Assembly (NCBI GenBank): GCA_001777575.1
Contig: MFEL01000018.1
Coordinates: forward strand, 72,264-136,263
From: Candidatus Doudnabacteria bacterium RIFCSPHIGHO2_01_FULL_46_24
GTDB taxonomy: Bacteria > Patescibacteriota > Doudnabacteria > UBA920 > O2-02-FULL-48-8
Reading direction: 5' to 3'
DNA length: 64,000 nt
In this document: positions 44,990-60,075 of the stretch, piece by piece
Layout of the letters: each line of letters begins with the position of its first letter
Position numbering within the stretch: the stretch's first letter is position 1
Notes under the pieces: model-generated
Databases searched by the model: none
What the model saw: the letters and a program-made list of their open reading frames with translations, nothing else
Told to the model about the DNA's origin: nothing
Program-made: the position numbers and the translations under genes

Positions 44990-45304
44990 AAATTAACCGA
45001 ATTTTATAAAACATTTTATCTCTATCTCGCCTCTTTTCCTCAAAAGGATAAATATGCCCTTGGCGCCAAATGCGAAGGCTATATTATTTCAACTCTTGAA
45101 TTATTATTGGCAGCGGAATACGCCAGCAAAAATCAAAGGCTGCAACTAATACAGCAGGCTTCCGTCAAATTCGATATGCTTAAGTCTTTTATCCGTATCG
45201 CCAAGGAGCTGAAAATTCTGGATCAGAAAAAATACATCCGCCTGGAAGCGGAATTACAAGAGATCGGCCGCCAGCTGGGAGGCTGGCAGCGATCTTTGAG
45301 CTAA
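44966..45304 (+). CDS. Avd-like accessory variability determinant (four-helix-bundle protein)
   Basis: 112-aa ORF. Its C-terminus (..EIGRQLGGWQRSL) and the SFPQKDKYALGAK..ASKNQ segment resemble the general Avd/four-helix-bundle family pattern. The first 24 nt are shared with the RT start on the other strand. Confidence 0.75.
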   Translation: MQELPILHKLTEFYKTFYLYLASFPQKDKYALGAKCEGYIISTLELLLAAEYASKNQRLQLIQQASVKFDMLKSFIRIAKELKILDQKKYIRLEAELQEIGRQLGGWQRSLS

Positions 45305-45315
45305 AGCATAGACGC

Positions 45316-45437
45316 AACCCGAGGAGGCACACGCCGCCGGAGTAGTTGTCGTTGGCATTCAGATTCCTGTTGTCGAACTTCAACTTGTCGTCGTTGGCCT
45401 TGAAGTAGAGCGAGTGCTGCTTCGACTGCCAGAATTT
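45316..45437 (-). repeat. DGR template repeat (TR)
   Basis: Aligns with 45706-45827 at an offset of 390 nt. Plus-strand T (minus-strand A) in the TR corresponds to A, C or G in the VR at about 23 positions. There is one non-A difference (TR 45396, G versus A). Confidence 0.85.
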
Positions 45438-45621
45438 GTCTTTTTCCTTCCACTAGCACCGGAGAATAATTACTTATCCTCCTGAATTTCATTTCGTCCG
45501 CAATGGACGTTGAAAAAAGACAAGTAGTGTCTATACTTTTTGCATGTATAGGATTTCAGCGGCTTAAGTCCGTAAACTTAAGCGCATTAACCTACTTTCA
45601 AGAATAATTTTATAACAAAAG

Positions 45622-45672
45622 AAAAACGGGAGCAATCAAGGACTGCTCCCGTCCGGACTCCTCCGAGAGTCC
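45622..45672 (-). terminator. two hairpins downstream of the target gene and VR: GGACTC-ctccga-GAGTCC, and GGGAGCA-atcaaggac-TGCTCCC followed by a T-run on the minus strand
   Basis: Read directly. The second has terminator character. Hairpins immediately 3-prime of the VR are a known DGR feature. Confidence 0.5.
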
Positions 45673-45704
45673 AAAACCCAAAACCCGAGAAACCGACGAA
45701 TGCA

Positions 45705-46646
45705 CTACCCGAGGAGGCACACGCCGCCGGAGTAGTTGTCGTAGGCACACAGATCCCCGCAGCCGAACCACAACCGGTCGCCGAAAGCCCTGAAGTAGAG
45801 CGAGTGCTGCCCCGACTGCCAGAGCACTGCGGCACAGTCCAAACCCGGCGTCTGGTAATCGCGCGCCAGCACGTCTGGGTAGGTGGTCAGCGCTGCTGCC
45901 GGCTCGATGACCCCGCACAGCAACACGTCCGCAGGCAGCGTAGCCATCTGCTCCCGATCTGCCGGGATCGAAAATCCCTGCAGGCAGTTCGGGGAATAGC
46001 CCAGCACAACCGAACCTTCGGCCAGCTTGCGCAGCAGGCGGTTGTGGCTTTGGGCCACGACCTTGACCTGCTTGGCCAGTTCCCCTTCGCGGTAGTTCTT
46101 GAAGCTGCGCCCGGGAAATTGCTGCTCGTAAGCCCGCTTGACCCCGGCCAGCAGCTTGTCGTCGGTAAACTGGCCTAGATCGCCAATCTGCATTTTCGGC
46201 AACGCCAACGGCAACACCATGCCATGAGTAGGCAGGTTGGCCATGAGCGGATCAGTCGCGAGACGGCAGAGAATCGCCGCGAACCGCGCTTCGAACTCGT
46301 CAGCTGACATGAACGCGCTGCCGCCGAAGTGCTCCACGAACCGCTCGAGACGCGCCGCAAAGTCCACTTTCGGCTGGTCGAGGTAGAACGACCGGTTCGC
46401 ATCCACAGCCTTGGCCTTCATGCCTTGGGGTGGGATGCGACGGCCGTTGCTGTCGAACAGCGGTTTGATCGGCTCTTCCAGCACGAACTCGCCCGATTCG
46501 TTTTCCGTGTCTGGCTTGGTAATCTTGAAAACGAGCCTGCCGCTCTTCACGGCTAACGCGTTCTCATTACCGCCAAGGTTGCTGATGAGCGAGCGGTAGT
46601 CGTTCCCGCTCCAAGGCCCCAACGTTTCCCATTCTATGAGTTTCAT
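45705..46646 (-). CDS. DGR target (variable) protein; the VR occupies the last 40 codons or so
   Basis: 313-aa ORF. The C-terminus (..AYDNYSGGVCLLG) is encoded by the VR. The TR-encoded equivalent reads ..NANDNYSGGVCLLG, with Asn (AAC) codons at the varied positions. GGAGGA lies upstream of the ATG. No signal peptide is evident. Confidence 0.75.
   Translation of the reverse strand: MKLIEWETLGPWSGNDYRSLISNLGGNENALAVKSGRLVFKITKPDTENESGEFVLEEPIKPLFDSNGRRIPPQGMKAKAVDANRSFYLDQPKVDFAARLERFVEHFGGSAFMSADEFEARFAAILCRLATDPLMANLPTHGMVLPLALPKMQIGDLGQFTDDKLLAGVKRAYEQQFPGRSFKNYREGELAKQVKVVAQSHNRLLRKLAEGSVVLGYSPNCLQGFSIPADREQMATLPADVLLCGVIEPAAALTTYPDVLARDYQTPGLDCAAVLWQSGQHSLYFRAFGDRLWFGCGDLCAYDNYSGGVCLLG
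45706..45827 (-). repeat. DGR variable repeat (VR) at the 3-prime end of the target gene
   Basis: See the TR entry. Confidence 0.85.
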
Positions 46647-48220: not shown

Positions 48221-49258
48221 ATGATTCAGACCAACGCGGATGAAATAGACATTGTCAATCCATCACCCAAAAAAAACGAGGGGTTTTTCGAAGCAACCCT
48301 CCGGCCCCAAACCCTCGGAGAGTATGTCGGCCAGGGCAAAATCAAAGACAATCTGAAAATTTTCATTGACGCGGCGCAAAAAAGAAAAGAGGTCCTGGAG
48401 CATATCCTGCTCTACGGCCCGCCGGGCTTGGGCAAAACCACGCTCGCCCACATCATTGCCCGCGAAAGCGGAGTCTCGATCAAGGTCACTTCCGGCCCGG
48501 CCATCGAAAAAAGCGGCGACTTGGCTTCCCTGCTGACCGCGCTGGAGCCCAATGACGTTTTGTTCATTGACGAAATCCACCGCCTGCCCAAAGCGGTGGA
48601 GGAAATTCTCTACCCGGCCATGGAAGATTATTGCCTGGATATTGTCTTGGGCAAAGGCGCCGGAGCCAAAGCCTTGCGCTTGGATTTGCCGAAATTCACT
48701 TTAATCGGCGCCACCACGCGCATCGGGCTGATTTCCGCACCCCTTCGCGACCGTTTCGGTTCCACTTACCGGCTCGACTATTATGAAGAAAATGAAATCG
48801 AGCAAATCATCGAACGGGCCGCGCACATTCTGAAAATCAAGATTGACCGCGGCGGCAAACAAGAAATCGCCAAGCGCAGCCGCCGCACCCCCCGCATCGC
48901 CAACCGGCTCTTAAAGCGCGTGCGCGACTTTGCCCAAGTCAAGGCGTCGGGCAAAATCACTGGCGACATTGCCCATGACGCGCTCAACATGCTGGAAGTG
49001 GACAGTCTGGGCTTGGATGCCAATGACCGCCGCCTCCTTTCCGCTTTGATCGAAAAATTCAGCGGGGGGCCAGTCGGGCTTTCCTCCCTAGCCGCAGCCA
49101 CCTCAGAGGAGCAGGAGACTTTAGAAGACGTCTATGAGCCATTCTTGATCCGCATCGGATTTCTAGCCCGCACGCCCAAAGGGCGCATCGCCACCCCTGC
49201 GGCCTACGAGCATCTGAGGGTATCTATGAAACAAGCCAAAGGGCAAACACTACTATAA
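48221..49258 (+). CDS. ruvB: Holliday junction DNA helicase RuvB
   Basis: [11 protein letters not shown] Walker [11 protein letters not shown], sensor motifs, and a winged-helix C-terminus. Confidence 0.95.
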
Positions 49259-49269
49259 TTTGCAATTAT

Positions 49270-49340
49270 CAATGGTCAATAGAAAACTGAAAATTAGAAA
49301 ATTAATTGAAATTTGAAATTTGTAAATTGATAATTCTCCC
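49270..49340. repeat. GAAAATT-type heptamer tandem array (about 7 units) upstream of the small membrane-protein gene
   Basis: gaaaactgaaaattagaaaattaattgaaatttgaaatttgtaaattgataatt. Confidence 0.5.
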
Positions 49341-49342
49341 AT

Positions 49343-49567
49343 ATGCTCAACGTCTACCAACCCACTAACCTTCTGCACACCGGCATTGCGCTGGTTTTTT
49401 ACCTGCTCATGGCCGGCTTTGTAGTCTATAGTTTTTTGGCGCTGTATGCCCTCAACCGCTTTGGCCATTCCAAACTTTTAGCTACGGTCATTTCGCTGAT
49501 TTACATTGTCATCATCGCCAGCCTGTTTGCCGCGGCCCAGACGAATCTGAATAGCATTAAATTTTGA
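49343..49567 (+). CDS. small hypothetical membrane protein (74 aa, two helices)
   Basis: Hydrophobic ORF immediately upstream of, and abutting, the next gene. Confidence 0.35.
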   Translation: MLNVYQPTNLLHTGIALVFYLLMAGFVVYSFLALYALNRFGHSKLLATVISLIYIVIIASLFAAAQTNLNSIKF

Positions 49568-49568
49568 C

Positions 49569-50144
49569 ATGTATCTACCAAGTCTCAAAAAAATCCTCGG
49601 CGAAAGCCAGTTTCCCGGCCAGCAGGAAAACGAGGAAGTCTGCCTGGTCATCCGCCAGCACTGGTTCGTGTTTTTCATGCGCCTTACGCTTTGGCTCCTG
49701 TTCGCCGCCATTTTGCTCGCCACGGACTGGTACATCGGCCGCTACGCGCCGGTCCTAGCAAATTCACCCTATGCCGAAATCGTCTCGCTCATCAAAAGCA
49801 TTTACCTCATGTTTTTGATGTTGGGACTGCTCATGCTTTGGACCATTTATTATTTGAACATGCAGATTGTCACCAACGAACGGCTGGTGGACATTGATCA
49901 GCATTCGCTTTTGCACCACAAAATTTCCGAGCTCTACCTCTCGCGCATGCAGGACGTCACGGCCGAAGTCAAGGGCTTGTTTCCGACTTTTTTCAACTAC
50001 GGCAACGTCTACATCCAGTCCGCGGCTGAAGTTGAGCGGTTTGTGTTCACCAACATCCCCAACCCCACAGCCGTGGCCAAGCTCATCTCCGACCTCTACG
50101 AAAAACTCCCGGTTGATGAAAAACAAAAAGGCCGGACAGAATAA
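49569..50144 (+). CDS. membrane protein with a bacterial PH-like (bPH_2/YdbT-like) domain
   Basis: Two N-terminal transmembrane helices, then NERLVDIDQHSLLHHKISELYLSRMQDVTAE...YGNVYIQSA, matching bPH_2 architecture. Confidence 0.4.
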   Translation: MYLPSLKKILGESQFPGQQENEEVCLVIRQHWFVFFMRLTLWLLFAAILLATDWYIGRYAPVLANSPYAEIVSLIKSIYLMFLMLGLLMLWTIYYLNMQIVTNERLVDIDQHSLLHHKISELYLSRMQDVTAEVKGLFPTFFNYGNVYIQSAAEVERFVFTNIPNPTAVAKLISDLYEKLPVDEKQKGRTE

Positions 50145-50170
50145 CTATAGTGCAATATCTTTGTTTTAAA

Positions 50171-50200
50171 GGCTCAACCGTCGGTTGAGCCTTTGCGGTA
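50171..50200 (+). terminator. hairpin ggctcaacc-gtc-ggttgagcc followed by TTTG (weak terminator after 49569..50144)
   Basis: 9-bp stem with a 3-nt loop and a short T-run. Confidence 0.4.
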
Positions 50201-50240
50201 CCTAAAATAGGCATGGCACAAATAGGTACCAGTGATTATA

Positions 50241-50280
50241 AAAAGAAAAAAGCTTGGGCAACCGTGGCGGTCGCCCAAGC
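50241..50280 (-). terminator. rho-independent terminator after the GC-rich hydrolase gene (gcttgggc...gcccaagc followed by a T-run on the minus strand)
   Basis: 8-bp stem with a 13-nt loop. The plus strand has an A-run just upstream, which is a T-run on the minus strand. Confidence 0.5.
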
Positions 50281-50288
50281 GAGAATGC

Positions 50289-51833
50289 TCACCGCGAGGC
50301 GGTGGCTTTTTGATAGACAACTGTGAAGAACTGCTCCCACTCGGGGTGGACCACGACGTGAATCGTGTCCTGCGACCCTTCGGGGATGAACGCCAACATG
50401 CCCACACTCTCAAGGTCCGAGAGTATGAACAACAGATCGCGGCGGTAGGCCGAGGACTTGCCTTTGAGGGGCAAATCGAACGCCTTGCCGATGGTGTGAG
50501 TCGGGAGTGCCGTGCGGGCGTTGGGGTTGCTTCCCTGCAGCCGCCCCTGGTATTCCTCGCTGCGCACCAGACTGTTGACTTCGATTGCCTGGAAGTTGCG
50601 GCCGGCAAGCAGCCGCGCCTCATTGGCGATGTAGATCAGCAGCCCGACCGTGGCCGGCTCCGAAGCGACGTACGCCTGCCGATTTTTCGGATCCCTCTCC
50701 GCAATCGGTGACTTACCAGCCAACCGCGGCGACAGTCCGTACTGAGCGTACGGGACCGGCAGGGGTACCAATCGCCGCTCTGCGGTGACAGAGCCAGTCG
50801 CTTGGCGCGTGGCCTCCTGGATCGCCGCCAAGTCCTCAAACTTGAGCTGTTCAACCTGCTCGGGCGTGAAGAAGGTCCACATGCGGCTGGGGGCCACCCG
50901 GTCGTCAAAGCGGTTGCGGTGAAGCGCAAACCGCTTGGCGTACGAACTGGGGTCCTTGCGGAAGTTGGCCAGCAGCTCCCACGCCTTGATGACGCGGGGA
51001 TAGTAGGTCTTGCCGAAGTCCGGCAGACGTTGGAGAGCCGAATACACCCCGGTTCGATAGTAGGGAGTGTTGCCGAAGTACACCGAGGCGTAGCTCAAAC
51101 CGTGACGCTTGATTGCCGCCGCAGCCGTACTACTGTTCACCGAGCCACCGGCTGCCGCAGACAACACCCGCAACACTCGACCCATGCCGTCGTGGTATTC
51201 CTGGACGGCAAAATCTCCGCGGTTGCCGAACAGTCGGATGGTGCGGCTAAACCTGCGCGCCATAGCCGGAATGATTTTCTCCGGCATGAGCCGCTCGTCA
51301 TAAACCACCACGTCCCCATAAACCGGCTTTGTCACTGCCGGAATCAGGCGGCGGTTTTTGCCAGTCCCAACCCAGCGCGCCTTGCGCGTGACGCGCGTGC
51401 CAATCTGCCTCCGCTCGGTCTTGATAACCAGGCCTTCCTCTTTGGCCGAGGCGCGGGAGAATTGTCCAAGGCCACGAGGTCCGGTCGGCGATTGTGCATC
51501 TGCCTCGCAGTAGCTTTCGACGAAAGCTACGGACGCGAGCAGGAACGGATCGATTCGCGGAGTGACTGAAGTACTGCCAGACTCGAAGAGCGGCCAGTAC
51601 TTCATGCACCTCGCCGGCGCGCCTTCAGCCTTGGGGTGCCGCAGCAGCCAGAACTCTTGGGCGTCTTGCAGCAGCCTCATCCGCGCCTCGAGCAATTGAG
51701 GCGTGAGCTTCTCCCGATCCTTGCCCACTCCGACAATGCGATCGAAGGAGGAGGCGTGCAGTGCAACGATGCCGGCAAGCATAACTATTGCCAGTATCAG
51801 CAGTTTCTTCATTGTCTCCTCCTCTGGAAACAA
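50289..51833 (-). CDS. secreted cell-wall hydrolase: lytic transglycosylase (SLT) domain plus a C-terminal M15/VanY-like (LAS) peptidase motif
   Basis: Signal peptide, an SLT core (ASVAFVESYCEADAQSPTGPRGLGQF, the E-S...GLxQ pattern), and C-terminal THTIGKAFDL (SxHxxGxAxD-like) and DTIHVVVHPEWE. GC content is much higher than the flanks. Confidence 0.45.
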   Translation of the reverse strand: MFPEEETMKKLLILAIVMLAGIVALHASSFDRIVGVGKDREKLTPQLLEARMRLLQDAQEFWLLRHPKAEGAPARCMKYWPLFESGSTSVTPRIDPFLLASVAFVESYCEADAQSPTGPRGLGQFSRASAKEEGLVIKTERRQIGTRVTRKARWVGTGKNRRLIPAVTKPVYGDVVVYDERLMPEKIIPAMARRFSRTIRLFGNRGDFAVQEYHDGMGRVLRVLSAAAGGSVNSSTAAAAIKRHGLSYASVYFGNTPYYRTGVYSALQRLPDFGKTYYPRVIKAWELLANFRKDPSSYAKRFALHRNRFDDRVAPSRMWTFFTPEQVEQLKFEDLAAIQEATRQATGSVTAERRLVPLPVPYAQYGLSPRLAGKSPIAERDPKNRQAYVASEPATVGLLIYIANEARLLAGRNFQAIEVNSLVRSEEYQGRLQGSNPNARTALPTHTIGKAFDLPLKGKSSAYRRDLLFILSDLESVGMLAFIPEGSQDTIHVVVHPEWEQFFTVVYQKATASR

Positions 51834-52005
51834 AAAGGTGCCCGGACCTATTCCGGAACACCAAATCCTAGCATTTTAGGCCTCTTTCGTCAAGCACTGC
51901 TCTTGACAAATTGGCCAGAAAGGAGTATACTTAGGGGTTTCAAGCTGCCCATGCAACAGGAGAGCTTGGAACAGCAGATTTCAATATAGAAGGGGGGGAT
52001 ATTTT

Positions 52006-52269
52006 TTGAAGGCAAGAGGGCGACCGGCGTGCGCCGGGTATGTCGTGGGCTTTGAAGTTTCCAAGCATGATCCAACGCGGGTCAATTGGAAAGTCAAAGT
52101 CCAGGCCGGCCCTCGAGCGCTCGTCGGCAAGAAGTTCTGCATTGAGTCGCACCACGTGCCCAAGAACATTCACGAGGGCATGGACGTGTTGTTCGATGTG
52201 GACGACCACGGGGTAGGGAAACCGGTGGCGATCAACGTGTTCCGCGTGGTGATCGTCGCCAACCGTTAA
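52006..52269 (+). CDS. small hypothetical protein in the GC-rich island (TTG start)
   Basis: A G-rich Shine-Dalgarno-like tract precedes the TTG start. No motif recognised. Confidence 0.25.
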   Translation: MKARGRPACAGYVVGFEVSKHDPTRVNWKVKVQAGPRALVGKKFCIESHHVPKNIHEGMDVLFDVDDHGVGKPVAINVFRVVIVANR

Positions 52270-52312
52270 CCGCTCGGGTAGTCCCGCACAAGGCGGGACA
52301 AGGAGAGCAGAG

Positions 52313-53194
52313 ATGAAGCGATTCACGTCGTTCCTCGTCGTCCTGGCCGTGCTGTGCATGGCCAACCTCGCGTTCGCGCAGGCCAACCCGGCAGGGCTGC
52401 CGACCGGTCCCTCGACCGGCGGCGTGAACCCCGCGCAGACGCCGCCCACCGCGACCTCGCCGGACGCCGTGCGCCAGGCCATGGCTGACAAGGCCAAGGC
52501 CGACGCGACCGAGAAGGCGACCAAGGACAAGGCGGCCATCGATGCGCGTCTCTCGATCGCAACGGCGCAGGCCGAGGCGGACAAGGCTGCGGTCGATTCG
52601 CGACTCGCGGTTCTCAACGCGCAGATTGACGGGCAGCTCAGCACGAACGCCCCGATCAATGTGGCCGGCGTGAACCTCACGACGACCATGACAGCGGCCG
52701 TCCCGAGCGAGAGCGACCCGCTGTTCCGGTCGTTCCTCCGCGGCATGGCCGAGGAGTACGGGGTCAACTACAACGACCTCGTTAAACTCCTGCAGTCCCG
52801 GAAGGCCGGCACGTCGAAGCAGGCCGTTGAGACGCTCTTCGCCGCGCGGGAGAAGAGCTTCAGCGACCGCATCGAGCAGCGGCTCGCCGAGCTCGCGACC
52901 AAGGCCGAGGTCAATACCCTCGGCTCGCGCATCAACGGCGCGGCAACGGAAGCCGCAACGGCCATCGCCGCGGCGGACACAGCTTCCAACGACGCCGCAT
53001 TCGCCCTCGAGGGTGTCGGCGTCATCACCAACGCCCTCAACCGGGCGACGGTGACGGAGCGGAGACCGACGCCGGTGCTGTCGATTTTCGGCCACAGTAA
53101 GGCTGTGGAGCGGCCGTTGTTCGAGGATCCCCTCGTCATCGACCGCGTCGTCGCGCGAATCGCCGCGCTCAGGAAGACGGGCGTCATCAAGTAG
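52313..53194 (+). CDS. secreted Ala/Thr-rich hypothetical protein (GC-rich island)
   Basis: Signal peptide (MKRFTSFLVVLAVLCMANLAFAQA), a low-complexity Ala-rich N-terminal half, and a strong terminator downstream. Confidence 0.45.
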   Translation: MKRFTSFLVVLAVLCMANLAFAQANPAGLPTGPSTGGVNPAQTPPTATSPDAVRQAMADKAKADATEKATKDKAAIDARLSIATAQAEADKAAVDSRLAVLNAQIDGQLSTNAPINVAGVNLTTTMTAAVPSESDPLFRSFLRGMAEEYGVNYNDLVKLLQSRKAGTSKQAVETLFAAREKSFSDRIEQRLAELATKAEVNTLGSRINGAATEAATAIAAADTASNDAAFALEGVGVITNALNRATVTERRPTPVLSIFGHSKAVERPLFEDPLVIDRVVARIAALRKTGVIK

Positions 53195-53242
53195 TAGGCC
53201 TAATCGCGGACTCTATATCCGCGAACAGGTCTCGAAGTGTGA

Positions 53243-53283
53243 CAGAAGGCAATCCCACAGTGGATTGCCTTCTTCTTTTTGTG
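53243..53283 (+). terminator. rho-independent terminator (gaaggcaatcc-acagt-ggattgccttc followed by TTCTTTTTG)
   Basis: 11-bp perfect stem, 5-nt loop, and a T-run. Confidence 0.75.
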
Positions 53284-53291
53284 CGCGGAAA

Positions 53292-53495
53292 TTAATGCTT
53301 AAATTTCCGGCAGGTGTTTATGAGAACTTCATAAACCCCTTCACGATTTTCGAGTAAATCATTATTCCAAAACCTAAATTCTGTTATTTTATAAGCACTC
53401 AAAATGCTCCAAAGAATTCGCTCGCAATCAGTTTGGGTTTTCCTTAACTGCCGACGGCGGTCCTTGAAATTGGCTTTGTTATATACTACTCCCAT
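53292..53495 (-). pseudogene. truncated DUF559-family (endonuclease-domain) gene fragment
   Basis: The 67-aa ORF carries the DUF559 N-terminal signature (LRKTQTDCERILWSIL) but is about half the normal length. Confidence 0.4.
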
Positions 53496-53565
53496 TTATT
53501 TGCTTTAAACACAACTCCCCCGCTAGGGTTTTGGCTTTAGTGCCTAAGGCATTGCGGCGGAGTTC

Positions 53566-54771
53566 TTACTTTATTTGATTCTCTTCCACCTTCAAGACCT
53601 GCGCATCCTCGGCCAATTTCGGCAAGTGATGTTCTTCCGTGGAGGTGATGAAGATCTGGTGCCCGCTTAAATTTTCCAAAAGCTTGGCCCGCCGGGTTTC
53701 ATCCAATTCCGAGAAAACATCGTCAAGTAAAATGATCGGCGGCTTTCGGTGCTGGTCCAAAAACCTGGCTTCCAGAAGTTTCAGGGCCAGGACTTGCGCG
53801 CGCAATTCGCCCTGCGAAGAATTATTGAGGTTATGCTCACCGTCTTTTTTGAACATGAAATCTTCGCGGTGCGGACCCGCAAGGTTTTGCCCCAGCCGAA
53901 TTTCCTGCGGGCGCAATTTTCTTAACTGCCCCAAAAACTCTTCCTTACTCGGGGCTGCAGGCGCATACTCGATCTCAAACTTATTCTCAAACCCGGTCAG
54001 GTTCTTAAGAATTCCAGGCAGGCCCTGCTTAAGAAACTCCGCCAGAACGGATCTGGCCGCGTCAATCTTCACTGATATCTCAGCCAGTTGCTCGTCCCAC
54101 AGTCCCAGTTCGCTCTCTTGAGCGCGGCGCTCGAACAATTGCTCCAAAAGCGCTTTGCGCTGTTTGAGCACGTAATCCAAAGACACCAAGTCAGCCGCGT
54201 ACTCGCTGAAGGTTTGGGCCAGGGTTTCGTCCAGGAATCTTCTTCTGAGGCTGGGCCCGAGGCTGAATAAGTTTAAGTCCGGCGGAATAAACAGCACCGC
54301 GGCAAACGAGCGCCAGAGCTGGCGGGAAACTTTCTGCCCGTTAATTTTGAACGCGCGCCTAAGGACGGGCTTGGTTTGGACTATGGCTTCAAGTTCCAGG
54401 CCATCCCGGACTTGACGTGTCCCAGACCCCGATCCGGGATCCGGGATCCTATCATGACCCCTGTCAAGATCCCCGATTTCTCCCCAAGTCCTCGCCTCGG
54501 GGATGGACATAAAGGGAGAGCCTGTTCCTTGCGTCGGGGGTGGGGCGCTGTGCATGCGGGCTCCAACCCTAAAAAAATCCTCTCCTTTTTTGACCAATAC
54601 CTGGTCCGCCGCGCGAAAGGATCTAAGCGCGGAAAGATAATAAATGCTTTCCAGAAAATTGGTTTTACCCGAAGCGTTCTCCCCCAAAATCAAAACGAGA
54701 TCGGAGTTTATCGCGACCTCAGCTTTTGAGTAATTTCTAAAATTATCTAAGGTAATTTGAGTTAATCGCAT
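53566..54771 (-). CDS. recF: DNA replication and repair protein RecF (with an internal insertion of about 40 aa)
   Basis: GENASGKTNFLE Walker A, ABC signature-like and Walker B/D-loop regions (ILLDDVFSELD). Extra Pro/Gly-rich segment at about aa 70-135. Confidence 0.8.
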   Translation of the reverse strand: MRLTQITLDNFRNYSKAEVAINSDLVLILGENASGKTNFLESIYYLSALRSFRAADQVLVKKGEDFFRVGARMHSAPPPTQGTGSPFMSIPEARTWGEIGDLDRGHDRIPDPGSGSGTRQVRDGLELEAIVQTKPVLRRAFKINGQKVSRQLWRSFAAVLFIPPDLNLFSLGPSLRRRFLDETLAQTFSEYAADLVSLDYVLKQRKALLEQLFERRAQESELGLWDEQLAEISVKIDAARSVLAEFLKQGLPGILKNLTGFENKFEIEYAPAAPSKEEFLGQLRKLRPQEIRLGQNLAGPHREDFMFKKDGEHNLNNSSQGELRAQVLALKLLEARFLDQHRKPPIILLDDVFSELDETRRAKLLENLSGHQIFITSTEEHHLPKLAEDAQVLKVEENQIK

Positions 54772-54835
54772 AATATCCTAGTATCTTGATATCCCAATAT
54801 CGATATTAGGATACTGAGATATTTAGATATTGACT

Positions 54836-55930
54836 CTAGAGTTTAATCGGCATGACGATGTAGAGGTAATTGTCGCGGCCCTCGGGGACAATTTGAGCAG
54901 GCGACGCGTCATTGATCATCCGAAACACCACTTTCGGCTCAGCCAGATTGTTCAGGCAGTCAAGCATGTACCGGAAATTAAACGTTGCCGTATTTTTCTC
55001 GCCCGTAACCTTAGCTGAAACCTTGGTCACGTTTTCACCGGCTTGCGCGGAAGAGGCATTAACCGTTACCCCGTCTTTATCCACGCTGATTTGGACATTG
55101 TTCGATTCTGGCGCAAATAAACTGGCGGCCTTAAGCGCATGTGTCAAATCATCTTTGGACAACCCCGCCTCGGTCTTAAACTCTTTGGGGATGATTTGGC
55201 GGTAATCCGGATAATTTCCGTCAATCAGGCGCGAGATTATTTCGGTTTCGTCGAATTTGAACAGAACTTGGGTTTCTGAAAAATAAATCTCAACCATGCC
55301 CTTGCTGCTGCCGAGGATTTTGTAAAGCTCCATGACAGTGCGGGACGGCACAATGGCTTCGCGGGAAGCGCTGACTGGTTGGTCCAAAACCACCATTCTT
55401 TCAGCCAACCGGTAGCGGTCAGTGGCGGCAAGCCTAAGTTTACCCTCTTCGAACGCCATAAAAATTCCGGAAATTTCCGGCTGGGTTTCGTTTTGAGAGG
55501 AGGCCCAGACGGTTTCAGAAAGCGCTTTCCTCAACTCTTCGCTGTCGATTTTGGTGTAAGCTTCATCTAAAACTTGGGGGATAAGCGGGAAGTCTTCGGA
55601 CGAAAGCCCGCGAATATTGGTATGGTAATTCTCCGATTCCAGGCTTAGGGTGGTGTCTTTAACACTCATAGTCACCTTGTCCGTTGGCAGGTTAGTGATA
55701 TATTCATTTATCAGCCGCGCTGGAACCGTCAGCGCCCCCTCCTCCTCCACCTTGCCGCCGATCCACGTGTTGACCCCAATTTCTAAATTAGTAGAGGAAA
55801 GTTTAAGCCGCCCTTGGTCGGTTTTGAGTAAAATATTATTAAGTACGGCCAGAGAGTTGCCGCTGCCCACCACCCGGCTGACCGCAAACAGACCTTTTTT
55901 TAAGTTATCCTTAGTGCATACTAACTTCAT
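54836..55930 (-). CDS. dnaN: DNA polymerase III beta sliding clamp
   Basis: 364-aa ORF with a three-domain clamp pattern (MKLVCTKDNLKKGL...). Confidence 0.9.
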   Translation of the reverse strand: MKLVCTKDNLKKGLFAVSRVVGSGNSLAVLNNILLKTDQGRLKLSSTNLEIGVNTWIGGKVEEEGALTVPARLINEYITNLPTDKVTMSVKDTTLSLESENYHTNIRGLSSEDFPLIPQVLDEAYTKIDSEELRKALSETVWASSQNETQPEISGIFMAFEEGKLRLAATDRYRLAERMVVLDQPVSASREAIVPSRTVMELYKILGSSKGMVEIYFSETQVLFKFDETEIISRLIDGNYPDYRQIIPKEFKTEAGLSKDDLTHALKAASLFAPESNNVQISVDKDGVTVNASSAQAGENVTKVSAKVTGEKNTATFNFRYMLDCLNNLAEPKVVFRMINDASPAQIVPEGRDNYLYIVMPIKL

Positions 55931-56108
55931 AAATTTATAAAATGATAATGATAATAGAAACTGTTAATTTGTGTATTTGTTAAAATTATCTATTGACGAA
56001 TTGCGAATTAACGAATTAATTATTTGAATTACTGTTTTTATTTTGGGTGTAAGTTGGGTATAAAAAACCGAAATCCGAAACCCGAAATTTTTAATTCACA
56101 ATTTATCC
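55931..56108. promoter_or_regulatory. AT-rich dnaA-dnaN intergenic region with CGAATT and CCGAAAT tandem repeats; candidate DNA unwinding element and oriC component
   Basis: The 178-bp spacer is strongly AT-rich and contains cgaattgcgaattaacgaattaatt and ccgaaatccgaaacccgaaat. A DnaA-box-like aatttatccc is also present. Confidence 0.4.
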
Positions 56109-57443
56109 CTATGGCATATACAACCTATCCTTAATCAAATCAATCTCCTGTTTGAGGCTGTTGCGCTCTTTCATGTGCCGCTCGATCTTGTCGACGGCGT
56201 GGATGACTGTGGTGTGATCGCGGCCGCCAAAGAATTCGCCGATGGACGGCAGGGACGTTTCCAATTCGCGGCGGATGATGAACATGGCGATTTGTCTTGG
56301 ATTGACGTACTCCTTCTTTCTTGACTGTTTGAGCAGGTCTTCCACGGAAACATTGTAGAAATCCGCCACCACCTCAATGATTTTTTTGGCGGAAATCCCG
56401 CGTTTTTTGGGTGGGGTGATGACGTTAACTAGGATACTTTTGACCTGTTCGATGGTCGGGTTGGTGTTGTTGAGTTGGCAGTAAACCATGAGCCGGTTTA
56501 AGGCCCCCTCCAGTTCGCGGATGTTGCTCTGGATGGTTTCCGCGATGTAAGTTAGGATTTCCGGCTCAATGTTATAATTTTTTTCCCGGGCTTTGGTTCT
56601 TAAAATTGCCAAGCGGGTTTCCAGATCCGGCGCTTGGATATCCGCCACCATCCCCCATTCAAATCGGGACACCAGCCGCTCTTCAATGGCTGGAATTTCC
56701 TTCGGCAGCCGATCCGAAGTCATGACCACCTGCTTGTTGTTTTGGTGCAGCGCGTTGAAAGTGTGAAAAAATTCTTCTTGTGTGCCTTCGCGGCCGGCCA
56801 GAAACTGGATATCATCCACCAACAACACATCGACGTTGCGGTAAAGGGATTTGAAAGTGTTGGTTTTGCCTGCAGAAACGGCAGTCACGAATTCATTGGT
56901 GAATCTTTCCGAGGTTACGTATAAAACCTTGGCTTCCGGGGTTTTTTTAAGCACCTCTGCCCCGACAGCTTGCATTAAATGGGTTTTGCCCAACCCCACG
57001 CCCCCATAGATGAACAGCGGGTTGTAGATTTGCCCGGGCTTTTTGCTGACTGCCTGGGAGGCGGCGTGCGCCAATTGGTTGTTGGAGCCGACGACAAAAC
57101 TGGTAAAGGTGTATTTGGGGTTGAGGTTTTGGTTTTCCGCTCGTTTGGCAGATTGGGGCCTGACCACCTCTTTGGTTGCGGGCAGCGGCATGGCTGAGGG
57201 GCTGACAATCTGATACTTAACCTCTTTGATTTCCGGAGAAATGGTTTTGAGCGCTTTCAGGATCTCTTGGTGATACTTGTTCTGCAGCCACTCTTTGGAA
57301 AATGCGCTCGGCACGCCAACCGCAATTCCGATTTCACTCTTTTCAATAATTGAGGTGTGCTTAAACCATGTGGTGAAATTAGCTTTGCTTAAAGTTAACT
57401 CCAAATTTCCCAGTATTGCCTGCCAAAGTTGCTGATTAGTCAT
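56109..57443 (-). CDS. dnaA: chromosomal replication initiator protein DnaA
   Basis: AAA+ motifs (GGVGLGKTHLMQAVG, LLVDDIQF), and a C-terminal domain IV DNA-binding signature. Confidence 0.95.
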   Translation of the reverse strand: MTNQQLWQAILGNLELTLSKANFTTWFKHTSIIEKSEIGIAVGVPSAFSKEWLQNKYHQEILKALKTISPEIKEVKYQIVSPSAMPLPATKEVVRPQSAKRAENQNLNPKYTFTSFVVGSNNQLAHAASQAVSKKPGQIYNPLFIYGGVGLGKTHLMQAVGAEVLKKTPEAKVLYVTSERFTNEFVTAVSAGKTNTFKSLYRNVDVLLVDDIQFLAGREGTQEEFFHTFNALHQNNKQVVMTSDRLPKEIPAIEERLVSRFEWGMVADIQAPDLETRLAILRTKAREKNYNIEPEILTYIAETIQSNIRELEGALNRLMVYCQLNNTNPTIEQVKSILVNVITPPKKRGISAKKIIEVVADFYNVSVEDLLKQSRKKEYVNPRQIAMFIIRRELETSLPSIGEFFGGRDHTTVIHAVDKIERHMKERNSLKQEIDLIKDRLYMP

Positions 57444-57621
57444 AAGTTAGGTCAACCGTCATTTTAGCAGATTAGTTATCAACATGTAAATCCTGAAATT
57501 TTGGCTAATCTTAGCCTAAATTATTTTAGAGTGTTAATAAAGTGTGGAATGCTGGTTGAAAGCTTGTGTGAGCGGCAGCCTAGGTGACAAAAACGAGAAA
57601 ATTTAGTATAATCATCTGGCT
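57444..57621. promoter_or_regulatory. dnaA-rpmH divergent intergenic region with DnaA-box-like sequences (GTTATCAACA; GTGTGGAAT) and the rpmH promoter GTGACA, 17-bp spacer, TATAAT (57584-57612)
   Basis: Read directly. rpmH and dnaA diverge here, and gene orientation switches from predominantly minus to plus. Confidence 0.45.
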
Positions 57622-57756
57622 ATGCAACCGACATATAGGCCGAAAAAATTGAGAAGAAAGCGTGTGCATGGGTTCCGAGCTCGCATGAAAAGCCGAGCCG
57701 GCCGCTTGGTTTTGTCGCGCCGACGCGCCAAGGGCCGGAAGCGGCTGACAGTTTGA
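57622..57756 (+). CDS. rpmH: 50S ribosomal protein L34
   Basis: The 44-aa [47 protein letters not shown] was found by hand; it is below the 60-aa cutoff of the track. It matches the universal bL34 pattern and shares an ATGA-type overlap with rnpA. Confidence 0.85.
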
Positions 57757-58085
57757 TGAAGCCAATATTTCTTACAAGTAAAGCGGATTTCGAGAAATTC
57801 CGCACCAGCAAAGCGTTTTACAGCGAAGGCATGAAACTGCGGGTGGCTTGGTCGAACCAAAACTTTCCTCGTTTTGGTTTTATTATTCCAAAAAAAGTCC
57901 TGCCTAAAGTTTCCGACCGCAATAAGCTCAAGCGCCGCTTGCGCGCGATCATCCGCGCAAATTTGAGCCGGGTTGCCAGCAAAGACCTGCTCATTTTCCC
58001 GAAATCGGGCGCCATCAGAAAAACTTACAAGCAGTTAAATGCTGAATTTATTTCCCTTTTAACCCAAGCGAGATTATGGAAATGA
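57753..58085 (+). CDS. rnpA: ribonuclease P protein component
   Basis: 110-aa basic protein with RNR-like motif context ([11 protein letters not shown]), located downstream of rpmH. Confidence 0.8.
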
Positions 58086-58339
58086 ACACGGTTCAAGTAT
58101 TGAATAAAACACTGGCCCTGCCTATGGTTGGGGTGATTTATCTTTACCAAAAAACCCTCTCGCCTGATCATGGAATTTTTCGAAGCCGCTACCCCTATGG
58201 TTTTTGCAAGCATTACCCCAGCTGCTCCATGTATGCCAAACAGATTTTTATTAAGCGGGGCGTGCTGGGTTTGCCTCGCGTAATGCGCCGAATTATCTCG
58301 TGCAACCCCTGGAGCTTGGGAGGAATTGATTTGCCATGA
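58076..58339 (+). CDS. yidD: membrane protein insertion efficiency factor YidD
   Basis: C.HYPSCSMYA...GGIDL pattern, as in YidD. Confidence 0.8.
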   Translation: MEMNTVQVLNKTLALPMVGVIYLYQKTLSPDHGIFRSRYPYGFCKHYPSCSMYAKQIFIKRGVLGLPRVMRRIISCNPWSLGGIDLP

Positions 58340-59040
58340 TCAGTCAGATTTTTAATCAAGCTTTGGTTTATCCCCTGCTGAACCTGCTGGTGTTTTTTTA
58401 TAATTATATTCCGGACATCGGCGCGGTAATTATTATTTTGACCGTGATTGTCCGGCTGATTTTGTATCCGTCCTTCCACCGCTCACTTAAGCACCAGCGC
58501 GCGCTTTCCGCCCTGCAGCCCAAGATGAATGAGATCAAGGAGAAATACAAGGACAATAAAGAACAGCAGGCCAAGGCCATGATGGAACTGTACAGTGCCC
58601 ACAAAGTCAACCCGTTAAGCTCCTGTCTGCCGCTTTTGGTCCAACTGCCCATTTTGATTGCGCTTTATCAGGTGTTTATTCAAAGCCTCAACGGCGCTGG
58701 CTTGCAGGGCATTTACAATTTTATCCCAACGCCCGATAAGATTGATCCCATGTTTCTCAATTTTATTAACCTTAAGGACCGCAATGTCTGGATGCCGGCC
58801 ATTGCCGCCATCCTTCAGTACTTCCAAAGCAAGCTGACCCTGCCCAAGGCTTCCGGCGGAGACACCATGAGCAAAATGATGGCCATGCAAACCTTGTATA
58901 TGTTTCCAGTTTTGACTTTCTTCATCGGCTTGCAGTTCCCGGCCGGCCTTACGCTGTATTGGATAGTCACCACTCTTTTTGGCATCGGCCAGCAGTATTA
59001 CATTTTGCGTAAAGAAGCCAAGGAGGCATTGACATCATGA
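58336..59040 (+). CDS. yidC: membrane protein insertase YidC (short Gram-positive/CPR-type form)
   Basis: 234-aa ORF with 5 transmembrane helices and the YidC/Oxa1 core. ATGA overlap with yidD. Confidence 0.8.
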   Translation: MISQIFNQALVYPLLNLLVFFYNYIPDIGAVIIILTVIVRLILYPSFHRSLKHQRALSALQPKMNEIKEKYKDNKEQQAKAMMELYSAHKVNPLSSCLPLLVQLPILIALYQVFIQSLNGAGLQGIYNFIPTPDKIDPMFLNFINLKDRNVWMPAIAAILQYFQSKLTLPKASGGDTMSKMMAMQTLYMFPVLTFFIGLQFPAGLTLYWIVTTLFGIGQQYYILRKEAKEALTS

Positions 59041-59537
59041 ATGAGAAAGAGTTGATAAAACAACAGCTCCTGGACCTGCTCAAACACATGGGGTTTGATG
59101 CGGACATCCTGGAGCGACAGGAAGAGGGGCGGATGGTGTTTAACATCAAAACGCAAGATGCTCAGCTTTTGATTGGCAAGCAGGGGGCCAATCTTGAGGC
59201 GCTGCAGTACATCATTCGCGCCTTCAGCCGCAAAAATCCGGAGTCCGAGCGGTTCCCGTTCGCACTGGATGTGGATGATTACAAAGACAAGCGCGTGATT
59301 TATCTGAAAGAACTGGCGCGCCGCGCTGCGCACCAAGCGCGCAGCAGCAAGCGCAGCGTCGGCCTGCCGCTGATGCCGGCCTTTGAGCGCAAAGTCGTGC
59401 ATGACTACCTTTCACTATTTGCCGATATTTCCTCTGAAAGCCAGGGAATGGAGCCCAACCGCCGCGTGGTCATCCGAAACAAAAAATCTACCCCCCAGCA
59501 ACCCTCAGACGACTTCGTGTTTATAGAAAATTCCTAA
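59037..59537 (+). CDS. jag: Jag/KhpB-like RNA-binding protein (KH plus R3H domains)
   Basis: N-terminal Jag_N, a KH-like LIGKQGANLEALQYI segment, and a C-terminal R3H (RKVVHDYL). Confidence 0.75.
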   Translation: MNEKELIKQQLLDLLKHMGFDADILERQEEGRMVFNIKTQDAQLLIGKQGANLEALQYIIRAFSRKNPESERFPFALDVDDYKDKRVIYLKELARRAAHQARSSKRSVGLPLMPAFERKVVHDYLSLFADISSESQGMEPNRRVVIRNKKSTPQQPSDDFVFIENS

Positions 59538-59613
59538 ACCCGAGATTGACAAAATGATTGCTGGCGGTTAGCATTTAAATATACAAGGCGGCGGAAAGGC
59601 CGTTTTTGTATTT

Positions 59614-60024: not shown

Positions 60025-60043
60025 ATCTTAAATAATAAACGGC

Positions 60044-60075
60044 TCCCTATTTCTAGGGAGCCTCGGAACTCCTTG
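60044..60075. terminator. hairpin ggctcccta-tttc-tagggagcc (possible bidirectional terminator)
   Basis: 9-bp perfect stem, T-rich on the minus-strand side only. Confidence 0.35.

What the first reader, a model, noticed from the sequence alone, without database searches (positions are those of the whole stretch)
50170..53290. Compositionally foreign GC-rich island bounded by terminators
Between about 50.2 and 53.3 kb, GC content jumps to a level far above the rest of the window. Protein composition there is Ala/Arg/Gly-rich. The three ORFs are each flanked by good terminators on the AT-rich side. This pattern suggests horizontal transfer from a high-GC donor or a chimeric assembly joint.
Basis: seen in the sequence. 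Interest (0 to 1): 0.55.

Follow-up and report, generated by a model that had tools for sequence, protein, structure and literature searches.

The report
GC-rich cell-wall hydrolase cassette, Doudnabacteria
The GC-rich stretch is real and correctly assembled: it is a small accessory gene cassette in an ultra-small (Candidate Phyla Radiation, CPR) bacterium that encodes a secreted cell-wall-cutting enzyme and two partner proteins, and related bacteria swap it, so it is a fairly ordinary genomic islet whose composition is oddly persistent.

Summary
Window 50289-53194 has 62% GC against 49% for the rest. GC3 is 0.75-0.89 against 0.59±0.08, and the tetranucleotide signature is far outside the host range (z about -10).

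The window is from a Candidatus Doudnabacteria (CPR) chromosome near dnaA-dnaN-recF. The island is a 3.4-kb insertion between two convergent genes, a PH-domain membrane protein gene ("PH191") and recF. It contains:
- a secreted lytic transglycosylase (SLT) with a C-terminal zinc-peptidase-like domain, on the minus strand;
- a divergent operon, p87 plus a secreted alanine-rich protein p293, on the plus strand;
- a shared AT-rich promoter spacer, and intrinsic terminators at both outer ends.

A chimeric assembly is refuted, because three independent assemblies span the junctions. One other public contig (L012) is itself chimeric inside the SLT gene.

Horizontal origin is supported. One relative has an empty site and one has two unrelated small low-GC ORFs there. 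Two others carry an island at the same site, with mosaic partner genes and one clear SLT allele replacement.

"Recent transfer from a high-GC donor" is not supported. The closest homologues are all from CPR bacteria. The gene is GC-richer than its surroundings in all 11 lower-GC contigs examined, even where synonymous sites are saturated. Acidobacteria-type homologues, whose GC matches their own genomes, are only about 36% identical.

Verdict: a new member of a known kind, of modest interest.

The parts
50145..53565 (.). Whole inserted segment relative to the empty site of a relative. It runs from the stop of the PH-domain membrane protein gene to the stop of recF.
   Evidence: In L007 (Doudnabacteria JACQPC01) the PH191 homologue ends at 10070 and recF ends at 10079, with nothing between them. 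L008 has two unrelated low-GC small ORFs there.
50168..50194 (+). Perfect 13-bp hairpin after the host gene PH191 (49569-50144). It is probably that gene's terminator, at the left edge of the island.
   Evidence: Inverted repeat I6, 100% complementary with a 1-nt loop; sequence read.
50252..50280 (-). Intrinsic terminator of the hydrolase gene.
   Evidence: 13-bp stem with 9 GC pairs, followed by TTTTTTCTTT. It begins 9 nt after the stop codon.
50289..51812 (-). Gene for a secreted 507-aa bifunctional-type peptidoglycan hydrolase. It has an N-terminal signal peptide, a family-1 lytic transglycosylase (SLT/GH23) domain, and a C-terminal DUF5715 / LAS-like zinc-binding domain.
   Evidence: Pfam SLT 29.8 bits (cut-off 21.3); DUF5715 22.6 bits, below its cut-off of 26.8. 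AGGAGG lies 4-10 nt before the ATG at 51812. AlphaFold model pLDDT 91, and Foldseek top hits are MltD, MltE, MltF, MltC and Slt70. E99-S100 and Q117 are invariant in 48 sequences.
50292..50795 (-). C-terminal domain (residues 340-507) carrying the invariant H439-x6-D446 ... H485 triad (codons at 50496-50498, 50475-50477 and 50358-50360).
   Evidence: The residues are invariant in alignments A1 and A3. The domain model has pLDDT 86. The best fold matches are VanY 5hnm (E 0.11) and LdcB 4oxd (E 0.13, prob 0.51), which are weak and mixed with noise.
51834..52005 (.). AT-rich divergent promoter spacer (GC about 0.48). On the + strand, -35 TTGACA 51903-51908 and -10 TATACT 51926-51931. On the - strand, -35 TTGACG 51893-51888 and extended -10 TAGGAT 51870-51865.
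   Evidence: Promoter scan scores of 11/12 and 9/12, with 8 sites found against 2.3±1.8 in shuffles. GC dip.
52006..52269 (+). p87, a small conserved protein of unknown function with no signal peptide. It is the first gene of the plus-strand operon.
   Evidence: GC3 0.75. It has a homologue (p78) at the same position beside the SLT gene in L044, 48% identical over 66 aa with E 1e-17. It was called as a gene in ENA contig L040. No Pfam, NCBIfam or PHROG hit.
52313..53194 (+). p293, a secreted alanine-rich, largely helical protein. It has a signal peptide ending AFA|QA, then a Pro/Thr/Ala linker, then A(D/E)KA-type repeats.
   Evidence: AAGGAG lies 7 nt before the ATG. GC 0.68, GC3 0.89. The only database match is itself. 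It shares this architecture and weak similarity (27% and 20%) with L001 p365 and L024 p278, which also sit beside an SLT gene.
53244..53273 (+). Intrinsic terminator of the p87-p293 operon.
   Evidence: 12-bp perfect stem with a 6-nt loop, followed by TCTTTTTGTG.
53292..53495 (-). AT-rich remnant of a DUF559 endonuclease-like gene. It lies between the island terminator and recF, is inside the inserted segment, and is not GC-rich.
   Evidence: Pfam DUF559 E 7.5e-6, matching only profile positions 3-35 of 109. GC 0.37-0.40.

Best explanation
The region is a genuine, correctly assembled accessory cassette in a Candidatus Doudnabacteria (Patescibacteria/CPR) chromosome. It is inserted between the convergent genes PH191 and recF, a few kb from dnaA.

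What it encodes. Two back-to-back sigma-70-like promoters in an AT-rich spacer drive two units. One is a Sec-exported muralytic enzyme: a family-1 lytic transglycosylase domain that cuts glycan strands, fused to a C-terminal LAS/M15-like zinc-binding domain that cuts or binds the peptide stems. The other is an operon of a small cytoplasmic protein (p87) and a Sec-exported alanine-rich helical protein (p293). Each unit ends at a strong intrinsic terminator.

How it evolves. The cassette is one allele of a hypervariable locus. Patescibacteria exchange this locus horizontally, probably by recombination in the conserved flanks. Its GC-rich codon usage is a trait of this gene family in all 11 lower-GC (mostly CPR-like) contexts examined, not the fading imprint of a recent high-GC donor.

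What is shown and what is inferred. Shown: the anatomy, the assembly support, the presence/absence polymorphism, the allele replacement, the SLT fold and the catalytic motif. Inferred: export, enzyme activities, the role of the partner proteins, and the biological target (the cell's own wall or a host cell's wall).
For: Organism and context:
- P0010 is named Candidatus Doudnabacteria.
- The neighbours are ruvB, recF, dnaN and dnaA.

Assembly:
- Independent contigs L038, L012, L039 and L040 are 99.8-100% identical across both junctions.

Insertion:
- The site is empty in L007 and holds unrelated small ORFs in L008.
- An island is present at the identical site in L001 and L044.

Exchange and mosaicism:
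- L001 and L044 have RuvB 91% and PH191 86% identical, but SLT only 40%.
- Window and L001 have RuvB 82% and SLT 61% identical.
- Window p87 matches L044 p78. L001 p365 matches L044 p608 at 58% over 158 aa. p87 and L001 p303 are unrelated.

Enzyme:
- Pfam SLT scores above its cut-off.
- PDB profile hits are T7 gp16, EmtA and MltF.
- AlphaFold pLDDT is 91, with Foldseek hits to MltD, MltE, MltF and Slt70.
- E99, S100, Q117, H439, D446 and H485 are invariant.

Composition as a family trait:
- GC3 observed minus expected is +0.10 to +0.31 in L001, L002, L004, L024 and L032, but about 0 in Acidobacteria-type L017 and L016.
- L041, L042, L043 and L044 are also GC-elevated.
- 4-fold sites are near saturation between window and L001 and among the groESL-linked copies.

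Literature:
- Genomic islands and horizontal transfer in Patescibacteria are documented (PMC12455944).
Against: - No integrase, tRNA, flanking direct repeat or terminal inverted repeat marks a mobilisation mechanism.
- Recombination in the flanks is inferred, not shown.
- The peptidase assignment of the C-terminal domain is weak. DUF5715 scores below its cut-off. The fold matches have E about 0.1 and TM about 0.3. The E-x-x-H catalytic glutamate of VanY/LdcB is not conserved.
- Only five Doudnabacteria loci were available for the gain/loss inference, and their branching order rests on small identity differences (0.71 against 0.68).
- Why the GC-rich codon usage persists is unexplained.
- There are no expression or coverage data.
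Confidence: 0.6

Rival explanations
1. Recent horizontal transfer of the three genes from a high-GC donor such as a soil Acidobacterium, not yet ameliorated.
For: - GC, GC3 and tetranucleotide signature are strongly atypical.
- Homologues sit in 0.61-0.67 GC contigs of free-living bacteria, where gene GC equals flank GC. One is named Acidobacteria bacterium. Contigs reach 2.5 Mb.
- The island's tetranucleotide profile correlates better with those contigs (0.53-0.69) than with its own host (0.48).
Against: - Those homologues are only 34-37% identical. The closest relatives (40-61%) are all in Doudnabacteria/Patescibacteria or CPR-like contigs.
- An island occupies the same site in L001 and L044 with near-saturated synonymous divergence and the same GC excess.
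- The Acidobacteria-like signature is reproduced simply by recoding host genes with the island's codon usage, so it is not donor-specific.
- In a crude NJ tree the Acidobacteria-type clade is shallow and nested among CPR lineages.
- p293 and p87 have no high-GC homologues.
Confidence: 0.12
2. Native, vertically inherited genes. On this reading the locus is ancestral to Doudnabacteria and was lost in some lineages. Its GC-richness comes from amino-acid composition plus selection or a local mutational bias on these genes, with no horizontal transfer.
For: - The GC excess appears in all 11 lower-GC contigs examined, including four lineages that keep the gene beside groESL with GroEL only 66-73% identical and 4-fold sites saturated.
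- Half of the GC excess is explained by the Ala/Arg/Gly/Pro-rich protein composition.
- The promoters, ribosome-binding sites and spacer look host-like.
Against: - SLT identity contradicts host relatedness: L001 and L044 have RuvB 91% but SLT 40%.
- The partner genes are mosaic or unrelated between islands.
- The site is empty in L007.
- The gene occupies at least three different genomic positions across CPR lineages.
- Adjacent, highly expressed GroEL shows no GC3 elevation, so a general expression-linked codon bias is unlikely.
Confidence: 0.2
3. Chimeric assembly joint: high-GC DNA from another organism was spliced into the Doudnabacteria scaffold.
For: - Metagenome origin.
- Sharp composition breaks at both ends.
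- One public contig (L012) really is chimeric inside this island, at window 51308/51309.
- The NCBI contig MFFG01000016 ends inside the island.
Against: - Four independent assemblies agree with the window across one or both junctions at 99.8-100% identity.
- The breaks coincide with terminators and gene ends, not with mid-gene positions.
- The SLT gene is intact and colinear with its family.
- L001 and L044 have the same architecture at the same site.
- At the L012 join both the SLT gene and a POR domain are truncated, which shows that L012 is the faulty contig, not the window.
Confidence: 0.02

Closest known systems
Family-1 lytic transglycosylases (Pfam SLT PF01464 / GH23: E. coli MltE/EmtA, Slt70, MltC; P. 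aeruginosa MltD, MltF; phage T7 gp16)
   Same: Same catalytic fold and the Glu-Ser catalytic motif (E99-S100). Pfam scores above its cut-off. PDB profile and Foldseek hits match these proteins.
   Different: Only about 15% sequence identity. The domain carries a long beta-hairpin insertion (residues 130-172 in the model) and is fused to a C-terminal H-x6-D...H domain that those enzymes lack. The organism is a CPR bacterium with no outer membrane expected.
Two-domain muralytic enzymes that pair a lysozyme/SLT-like glycosidase with a peptidase (from my own knowledge, not tested here: phage phi29 gp13 lysozyme+M23; ICEBs1 CwlT; pIP501 TraG and pCF10 PrgK, SLT+CHAP, the latter two cited in PMC12102498)
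   Same: An N-terminal glycan-cleaving domain and a C-terminal peptide-directed domain in one exported protein.
   Different: - The C-terminal domain here is DUF5715/LAS-like, not CHAP, NlpC/P60 or M23.
- No type IV secretion, conjugation or phage genes are adjacent.
- No plasmid or phage homologue was found.
LAS / peptidase M15 family (VanY, LdcB)
   Same: Conserved His-x6-Asp and a distal His, as in the zinc triad. The top (weak) structural matches are VanY 5hnm and LdcB 4oxd.
   Different: Fold match is not significant (E about 0.1, TM about 0.3). The catalytic Glu of the E-x-x-H motif is not conserved. There is no PDB sequence hit. Pfam DUF5715 scores below its gathering score.
Hypervariable accessory loci at a fixed chromosomal site, exchanged through conserved flanks (for example O-antigen or capsule loci; from my own knowledge)
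   Same: Fixed position between conserved genes, atypical composition, deeply diverged alleles that do not follow the host tree, mosaic gene content, and no integrase.
   Different: - Those loci are usually AT-richer than the genome and encode polysaccharide synthesis.
- This one is GC-richer and encodes a secreted hydrolase plus secreted structural-looking proteins.
- It is only about 3-6 kb.
Acidobacteria-type SLT-DUF5715 homologues (P0165, P0222 and about 186 clusters)
   Same: Same full-length architecture and the same invariant residues.
   Different: They are 34-37% identical. Their GC equals that of their 0.61-0.67 GC genomes. They have different neighbours and no p87- or p293-like partners.

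Membership tests
Family-1 lytic transglycosylase (SLT, PF01464) | Profile match above the curated cut-off. | tested here: met
   29.8 bits against a cut-off of 21.3, residues 91-142. The PDB profile search hits T7 gp16, EmtA and MltF at E 3e-8 to 1e-3.
Family-1 lytic transglycosylase (SLT, PF01464) | Catalytic Glu followed by Ser (the E-S motif), conserved across the family. | tested here: met
   E99, S100 and Q117 are invariant in 9 and in 48 aligned sequences.
Family-1 lytic transglycosylase (SLT, PF01464) | Goose-lysozyme-like alpha-helical fold. | tested here: met
   Model pLDDT 91. Foldseek prob 1.00 to MltD, MltE, MltF, MltC and Slt70, with target-normalised TM 0.62-0.67 to MltE.
Family-1 lytic transglycosylase (SLT, PF01464) | Produces 1,6-anhydro-MurNAc products from peptidoglycan. 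| not testable with these tools
   Requires a biochemical assay.
LAS / M15 zinc peptidase (VanY, LdcB; DUF5715) | His-x6-Asp plus distal His zinc triad. | tested here: met
   H439, D446 and H485 are invariant in 48 sequences.
LAS / M15 zinc peptidase (VanY, LdcB; DUF5715) | Profile match above the curated cut-off. | tested here: not met
   DUF5715 scores 22.6 bits against a cut-off of 26.8. There is no PDB sequence hit for the domain.
LAS / M15 zinc peptidase (VanY, LdcB; DUF5715) | LAS fold. | tested here: inconclusive
LAS / M15 zinc peptidase (VanY, LdcB; DUF5715) | Catalytic Glu three residues before the distal His (E-x-x-H). | tested here: not met
   The position is D, P, E, R or F among the close homologues. 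The invariant D466 might substitute, but that is untested.
Horizontally acquired DNA | Composition atypical for the genome. | tested here: met
   GC 0.62 against 0.49; GC3 z 2.2-4.3; tetranucleotide z -10.4.
Horizontally acquired DNA | Presence/absence polymorphism at a conserved syntenic site. | tested here: met
   Empty in L007, different content in L008, L009 and L010, island present in L001 and L044.
Horizontally acquired DNA | Gene tree incongruent with the host tree. | tested here: met
   L001 and L044 have RuvB 91% but SLT 40%. Window and L001 have RuvB 82% but SLT 61%.
Horizontally acquired DNA | An identifiable donor lineage with close homologues. | tested here: not met
   The closest homologues are CPR. 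The high-GC ones are 34-37% identical.
Classical integrase-type genomic island / prophage | Integrase or transposase, tRNA target, flanking direct repeats, phage genes. | tested here: not met
   There is no tRNA nearby; the only one is at 11277. No convincing flanking repeats. PHROGs hit only the generic SLT motif, and tblastn against phages and plasmids found nothing.
Assembly chimera | Junctions not supported by independent data. | tested here: not met
   Both junctions are spanned by independent assemblies. Read-level support was not testable.

The most novel reading that the evidence does not exclude
The recF-adjacent cassette may be a host-interaction (host-wall attack or attachment) determinant of episymbiotic Doudnabacteria. 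On this reading it is kept as deeply diverged, mosaic alleles at a fixed site near the replication origin and is exchanged across Patescibacteria. Its GC-rich codon usage would be actively maintained by selection or a gene-specific bias rather than being a relic. That would make it a counter-example to the rule that atypical composition means recent transfer.
Probability: 0.2. Interest if true: 0.55.

Novelty: new member of a known kind. Interest (0 to 1): 0.3.

Why it matters
For curation:
- The scaffold is sound at this point.
- The public contig Ga0209343_10028917 is the chimeric one.
- The 507-aa protein can be annotated as a secreted lytic transglycosylase with a C-terminal DUF5715/LAS-like domain.
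- p87 is a real gene.

For biology:
- CPR bacteria are thought to live on other cells, and secreted muralytic enzymes are candidate tools for breaching the host wall (PMC11665869).
- A variable, exchanged hydrolase cassette is a reasonable candidate for host-range studies once Doudnabacteria can be cultivated.

For method:
- The gene is GC-richer than its surroundings in all 11 lower-GC contigs examined, despite saturated synonymous divergence.
- Composition-based detection of "recent" transfer can therefore mislead in these genomes.

Tried and rejected
- Prophage or lysis-cassette reading: PHROGs hit only the generic SLT motif, and tblastn of the SLT protein against 50,697 phage records found nothing.
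- Plasmid origin: no match in 72,556 plasmids.
- Mobile-element signatures: no meaningful flanking direct or inverted repeats and no tRNA nearby.
- Link to the neighbouring diversity-generating retroelement (DGR): the template repeat with A→N matches only its known variable repeat and nothing in the island.
- Tetranucleotide similarity to Acidobacteria-type contigs as donor evidence: rejected, because host genes recoded with the island's codon usage give the same similarity.
- Expression-linked codon bias as the cause of high GC3: not supported, because GroEL next to SLT homologues has ordinary GC4 and rpoB/rpoC are only +0.04 and +0.06.
- Function of p293 and p87: no Pfam, NCBIfam, PHROG or database homologues.
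- Taxon names for the high-GC homologues: only one named record was found, an Acidobacteria bacterium.
- Direction of transfer: the midpoint-rooted NJ tree, which has no support values, cannot settle it.

Full report
**Observation**

- The 1-kb windows at 50-53 kb have GC 0.587, 0.577 and 0.653. Nothing else in the 64 kb exceeds 0.567.
- At 200-bp resolution GC climbs from about 50.3 kb and peaks at 0.725 near 52.5 kb. It dips to 0.475 in the 51.8-52.0 kb intergenic spacer and collapses to 0.37-0.40 after 53.2 kb.
- The three ORFs are 50289-51833(-), 52006-52269(+) and 52313-53194(+).
- Their GC3 values are 0.75, 0.75 and 0.89, against 0.586±0.077 for 42 other genes. They are enriched in Ala/Arg/Gly/Pro (0.30-0.35 against 0.24).
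- I split the excess into its sources. For the largest gene, GC is 0.613 observed. It would be 0.558 if its protein were written in host codons, and the host mean is about 0.50. So amino-acid composition and codon choice contribute about equally.
- GC3 observed minus expected is +0.14, +0.15 and +0.28 (z 2.2, 2.4 and 4.3).
- The GC-normalised tetranucleotide profile correlates at 0.48 with the rest of the window. Host segments of the same length give 0.857±0.037, so the island is at z = -10.4.
- Strong intrinsic terminators lie at 50280-50252(-) and 53244-53273(+). A perfect hairpin at 50168-50194 follows the upstream host gene.
- One correction: p87 has no terminator of its own. The inner ends of the two transcription units share an AT-rich spacer with back-to-back promoter-like sites.

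**Organism and context**

- The 293-aa protein matches only itself in the 5.8-billion-protein collection. That record is named Candidatus Doudnabacteria bacterium RIFCSPLOWO2_02_FULL.
- The surrounding genes are a typical Patescibacteria origin-proximal region. They are M29 aminopeptidase, ruvB, a 74-aa membrane protein, a 191-aa bPH_2 membrane protein (PH191), the island, a DUF559 remnant, recF, dnaN, dnaA, and then rnpA-yidD-yidC-jag.

**Is it an assembly artefact? No.**

- ENA contig k141_450430 (107 kb, L038) is 99.995% identical over window 42358-63194.
- ENA contig L040 covers 50266-52534.
- NCBI contig MFFG01000016 (L039) covers 52162-60480.
- JGI contig Ga0209343_10028917 (L012) covers 48478-51308 at 100% identity.
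- L012 then departs from the window at 51308/51309, inside the hydrolase gene. Its other half is unrelated GC 0.59 DNA.
- The L012 join truncates both the SLT gene (at about residue 166) and a pyruvate:ferredoxin oxidoreductase domain (Pfam POR positions 2-85 of 173).
- The window's gene is intact and colinear with 47 homologues, with invariant residues on both sides of that point. L012 is therefore the chimera, not the window.

**Is it an insertion? Yes.**

I used PH191 as an anchor in species-representative genomes.
- Doudnabacteria L007 has ruvB-p74-PH191 followed directly by recF-dnaN, with 8 bp between the convergent stops.
- L008 has two unrelated low-GC small ORFs at that spot. L009 and L010 have other genes.
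- Two further Doudnabacteria-type contigs carry an island at exactly this site. L001 reads dnaN-recF-[p365, p303, SLT]-PH191. L044 (GCA_016182875.1) reads dnaN-recF-[p577, p608, p78, SLT]-PH191.
- In both, the island genes are GC-rich (0.58-0.65) against flanks of 0.42-0.53.

**Is it exchanged? Yes, at least once.**

- L001 and L044 are close by their flanks (RuvB 91%, PH191 86%), yet their SLT proteins are only 40% identical.
- The window and L001 are more distant (RuvB 82%) but share SLT at 61%.
- The partner genes are mosaic. Window p87 is homologous to L044 p78 (48%, E 1e-17), which also shows that p87 is a real gene. L001 p365 shares a 158-aa block with L044 p608 (58%). p87 and L001 p303 are unrelated.
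- No integrase, tRNA or flanking repeats are present. Replacement through the conserved flanks is therefore the likely route, but that is an inference.

**Where does the family live?**

- A profile search of 1.84 billion representatives finds 171 relatives at E<1e-30.
- The closest ones with names are Doudnabacteria and Patescibacteria.
- In four CPR-like lineages the gene sits beside groESL: L002, L004, L032 and the P0006 contig.
- A large, shallow clade at 34-37% identity sits in 0.61-0.67 GC contigs of free-living soil bacteria that carry KdpA, MgtE and histidine kinases. One record is named Acidobacteria bacterium, and contigs reach 2.5 Mb. There the gene's GC equals its flanks.
- In a crude NJ tree that clade is nested among CPR lineages, so the direction of any transfer is unresolved.

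**The persistent composition**

- In all 11 lower-GC contigs examined the gene is GC-richer than its flanks: the window, L001, L002, L004, L024, L032, L033, L041, L042, L043 and L044.
- GC3 exceeds the host-codon expectation by +0.10 to +0.31 wherever enough host sequence is available to compute it.
- This holds although 4-fold sites are near saturation between window and L001, and fully saturated among the groESL-linked copies, whose GroEL is only 66-73% identical.
- Simple amelioration would have erased a donor imprint. Either the cassette is replaced repeatedly from a GC-rich pool, or the composition is maintained.
- It is not a general high-expression bias, because adjacent GroEL has ordinary GC4.
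- The island's resemblance to Acidobacteria-type contigs in tetranucleotide space is reproduced by recoding host genes with the island's codon usage. It is therefore not donor-specific evidence.
- The neighbouring DGR cassette mixes an AT-rich reverse transcriptase (GC 0.40) with a GC-rich target gene (GC 0.61). Gene-specific composition therefore occurs elsewhere in this genome.

**What the genes do**

The 507-aa protein:
- It starts at the ATG at 51812, which is preceded by AGGAGG, and begins with a hydrophobic signal-like helix.
- Its N-terminal half is a family-1 lytic transglycosylase. Pfam SLT scores above its cut-off. PDB profile hits are T7 gp16, EmtA and MltF.
- The AlphaFold model has pLDDT 91. 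Foldseek prob is 1.00 to MltD, MltE, MltF, MltC and Slt70. E99-S100 is invariant.
- The C-terminal 170 residues carry an invariant H439-x6-D446...H485 triad and a sub-threshold DUF5715 match.
- The domain model (pLDDT 86) finds VanY and LdcB first, but only at E about 0.1, and the E-x-x-H glutamate is not conserved. "LAS-like zinc domain, peptidase or peptide-stem binder" is as far as the evidence goes.

The partner proteins:
- p293 has a signal peptide (AFA|QA), a Pro/Thr/Ala linker and alanine-rich repeats. Proteins of like design sit beside the SLT gene in L001 and L024.
- p87 is small, conserved and has no signal peptide. Its role is unknown.

The most likely working model is a secreted wall-cutting enzyme with accessory secreted proteins, used on the cell's own wall or, as proposed for Patescibacteria in general (PMC11665869), on a host cell's wall. 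Export, activity and target are all inferred.

**Comparison and verdict**

- The enzyme is a member of the SLT family by every feature I could test. Its membership of the LAS/M15 peptidases is not established.
- Two-domain glycosidase-plus-peptidase muralytic enzymes are well known. Examples are phi29 gp13, CwlT, TraG and PrgK, the last two cited in PMC12102498.
- Genomic islands and horizontal transfer in Patescibacteria are documented (PMC12455944).
- The finding is therefore a new member of a known kind: a small, integrase-less, hypervariable accessory cassette.
- The one unusual aspect is that the GC-rich composition persists across CPR lineages, and I could not explain it.
- Interest is modest (0.3).

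Noticed in passing
window 43916-46646: A complete diversity-generating retroelement (DGR). The reverse transcriptase is at 43916-44989(-), the bAvd accessory gene at 44966-45304(+), the template repeat at 45317-45433 and the variable repeat at 45707-45823. The repeats are 117 bp with 19 mismatches, 18 of them at adenines of the coding strand. The variable repeat forms the 3' end of a 313-aa target gene (45705-46646, -) that has no Pfam or PDB match. The target gene is GC-rich (0.61, GC3 0.79) while the RT is AT-rich (0.40). The whole cassette is absent in L007, where the VanW and M29 peptidase genes are adjacent.
   Followed up: partly
L012 1-2768 / window 51308-51309: Public JGI contig Ga0209343_10028917 is identical to window 48478-51308 and then switches to unrelated GC 0.59 DNA. 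The join truncates both the SLT gene and a POR (pyruvate:ferredoxin oxidoreductase) domain, so that contig is probably chimeric.
   Followed up: yes
window 53292-53495: An AT-rich 67-aa remnant of a DUF559 endonuclease-like gene (profile positions 3-35 of 109) sits between the island terminator and recF. It is absent from L001.
   Followed up: no
window 51841-51857 (- strand): A terminator-like hairpin plus T-run lies in the predicted 5' leader of the hydrolase gene, between the -10 box (51870-51865) and the ATG (51812). It could be a leader hairpin or attenuator, or chance.
   Followed up: no
window 54300-54500 (recF): recF is 401 aa here against 354-379 aa in relatives. It carries a GC-rich (0.58-0.59), Pro/Gly/Ser-rich insert of about 45 aa.
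   Followed up: no
L039 1583-1590: NCBI contig MFFG01000016 (GCA_001777815.1) starts inside the island (window 52162) and has an 8-N scaffold gap replacing 117 bp of recF, so recF is not called there.
   Followed up: yes
window 38496-39488 and 59614-60024: Other accessory genes in the window are AT-rich rather than GC-rich. These are a RhuM/Fic-domain protein and a PemK/MazF toxin (GC 0.40, GC3 0.44).
   Followed up: no
L002, L004, L032 and the P0006 contig: In four CPR-like lineages the SLT-DUF5715 gene is the convergent neighbour of groEL-groES. Three of them (L002, L004, L032) share a further conserved block (312-aa and 115-aa unknowns, fpg); L002 and L004 also share ndk, ppiase and comEC.
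   Followed up: partly
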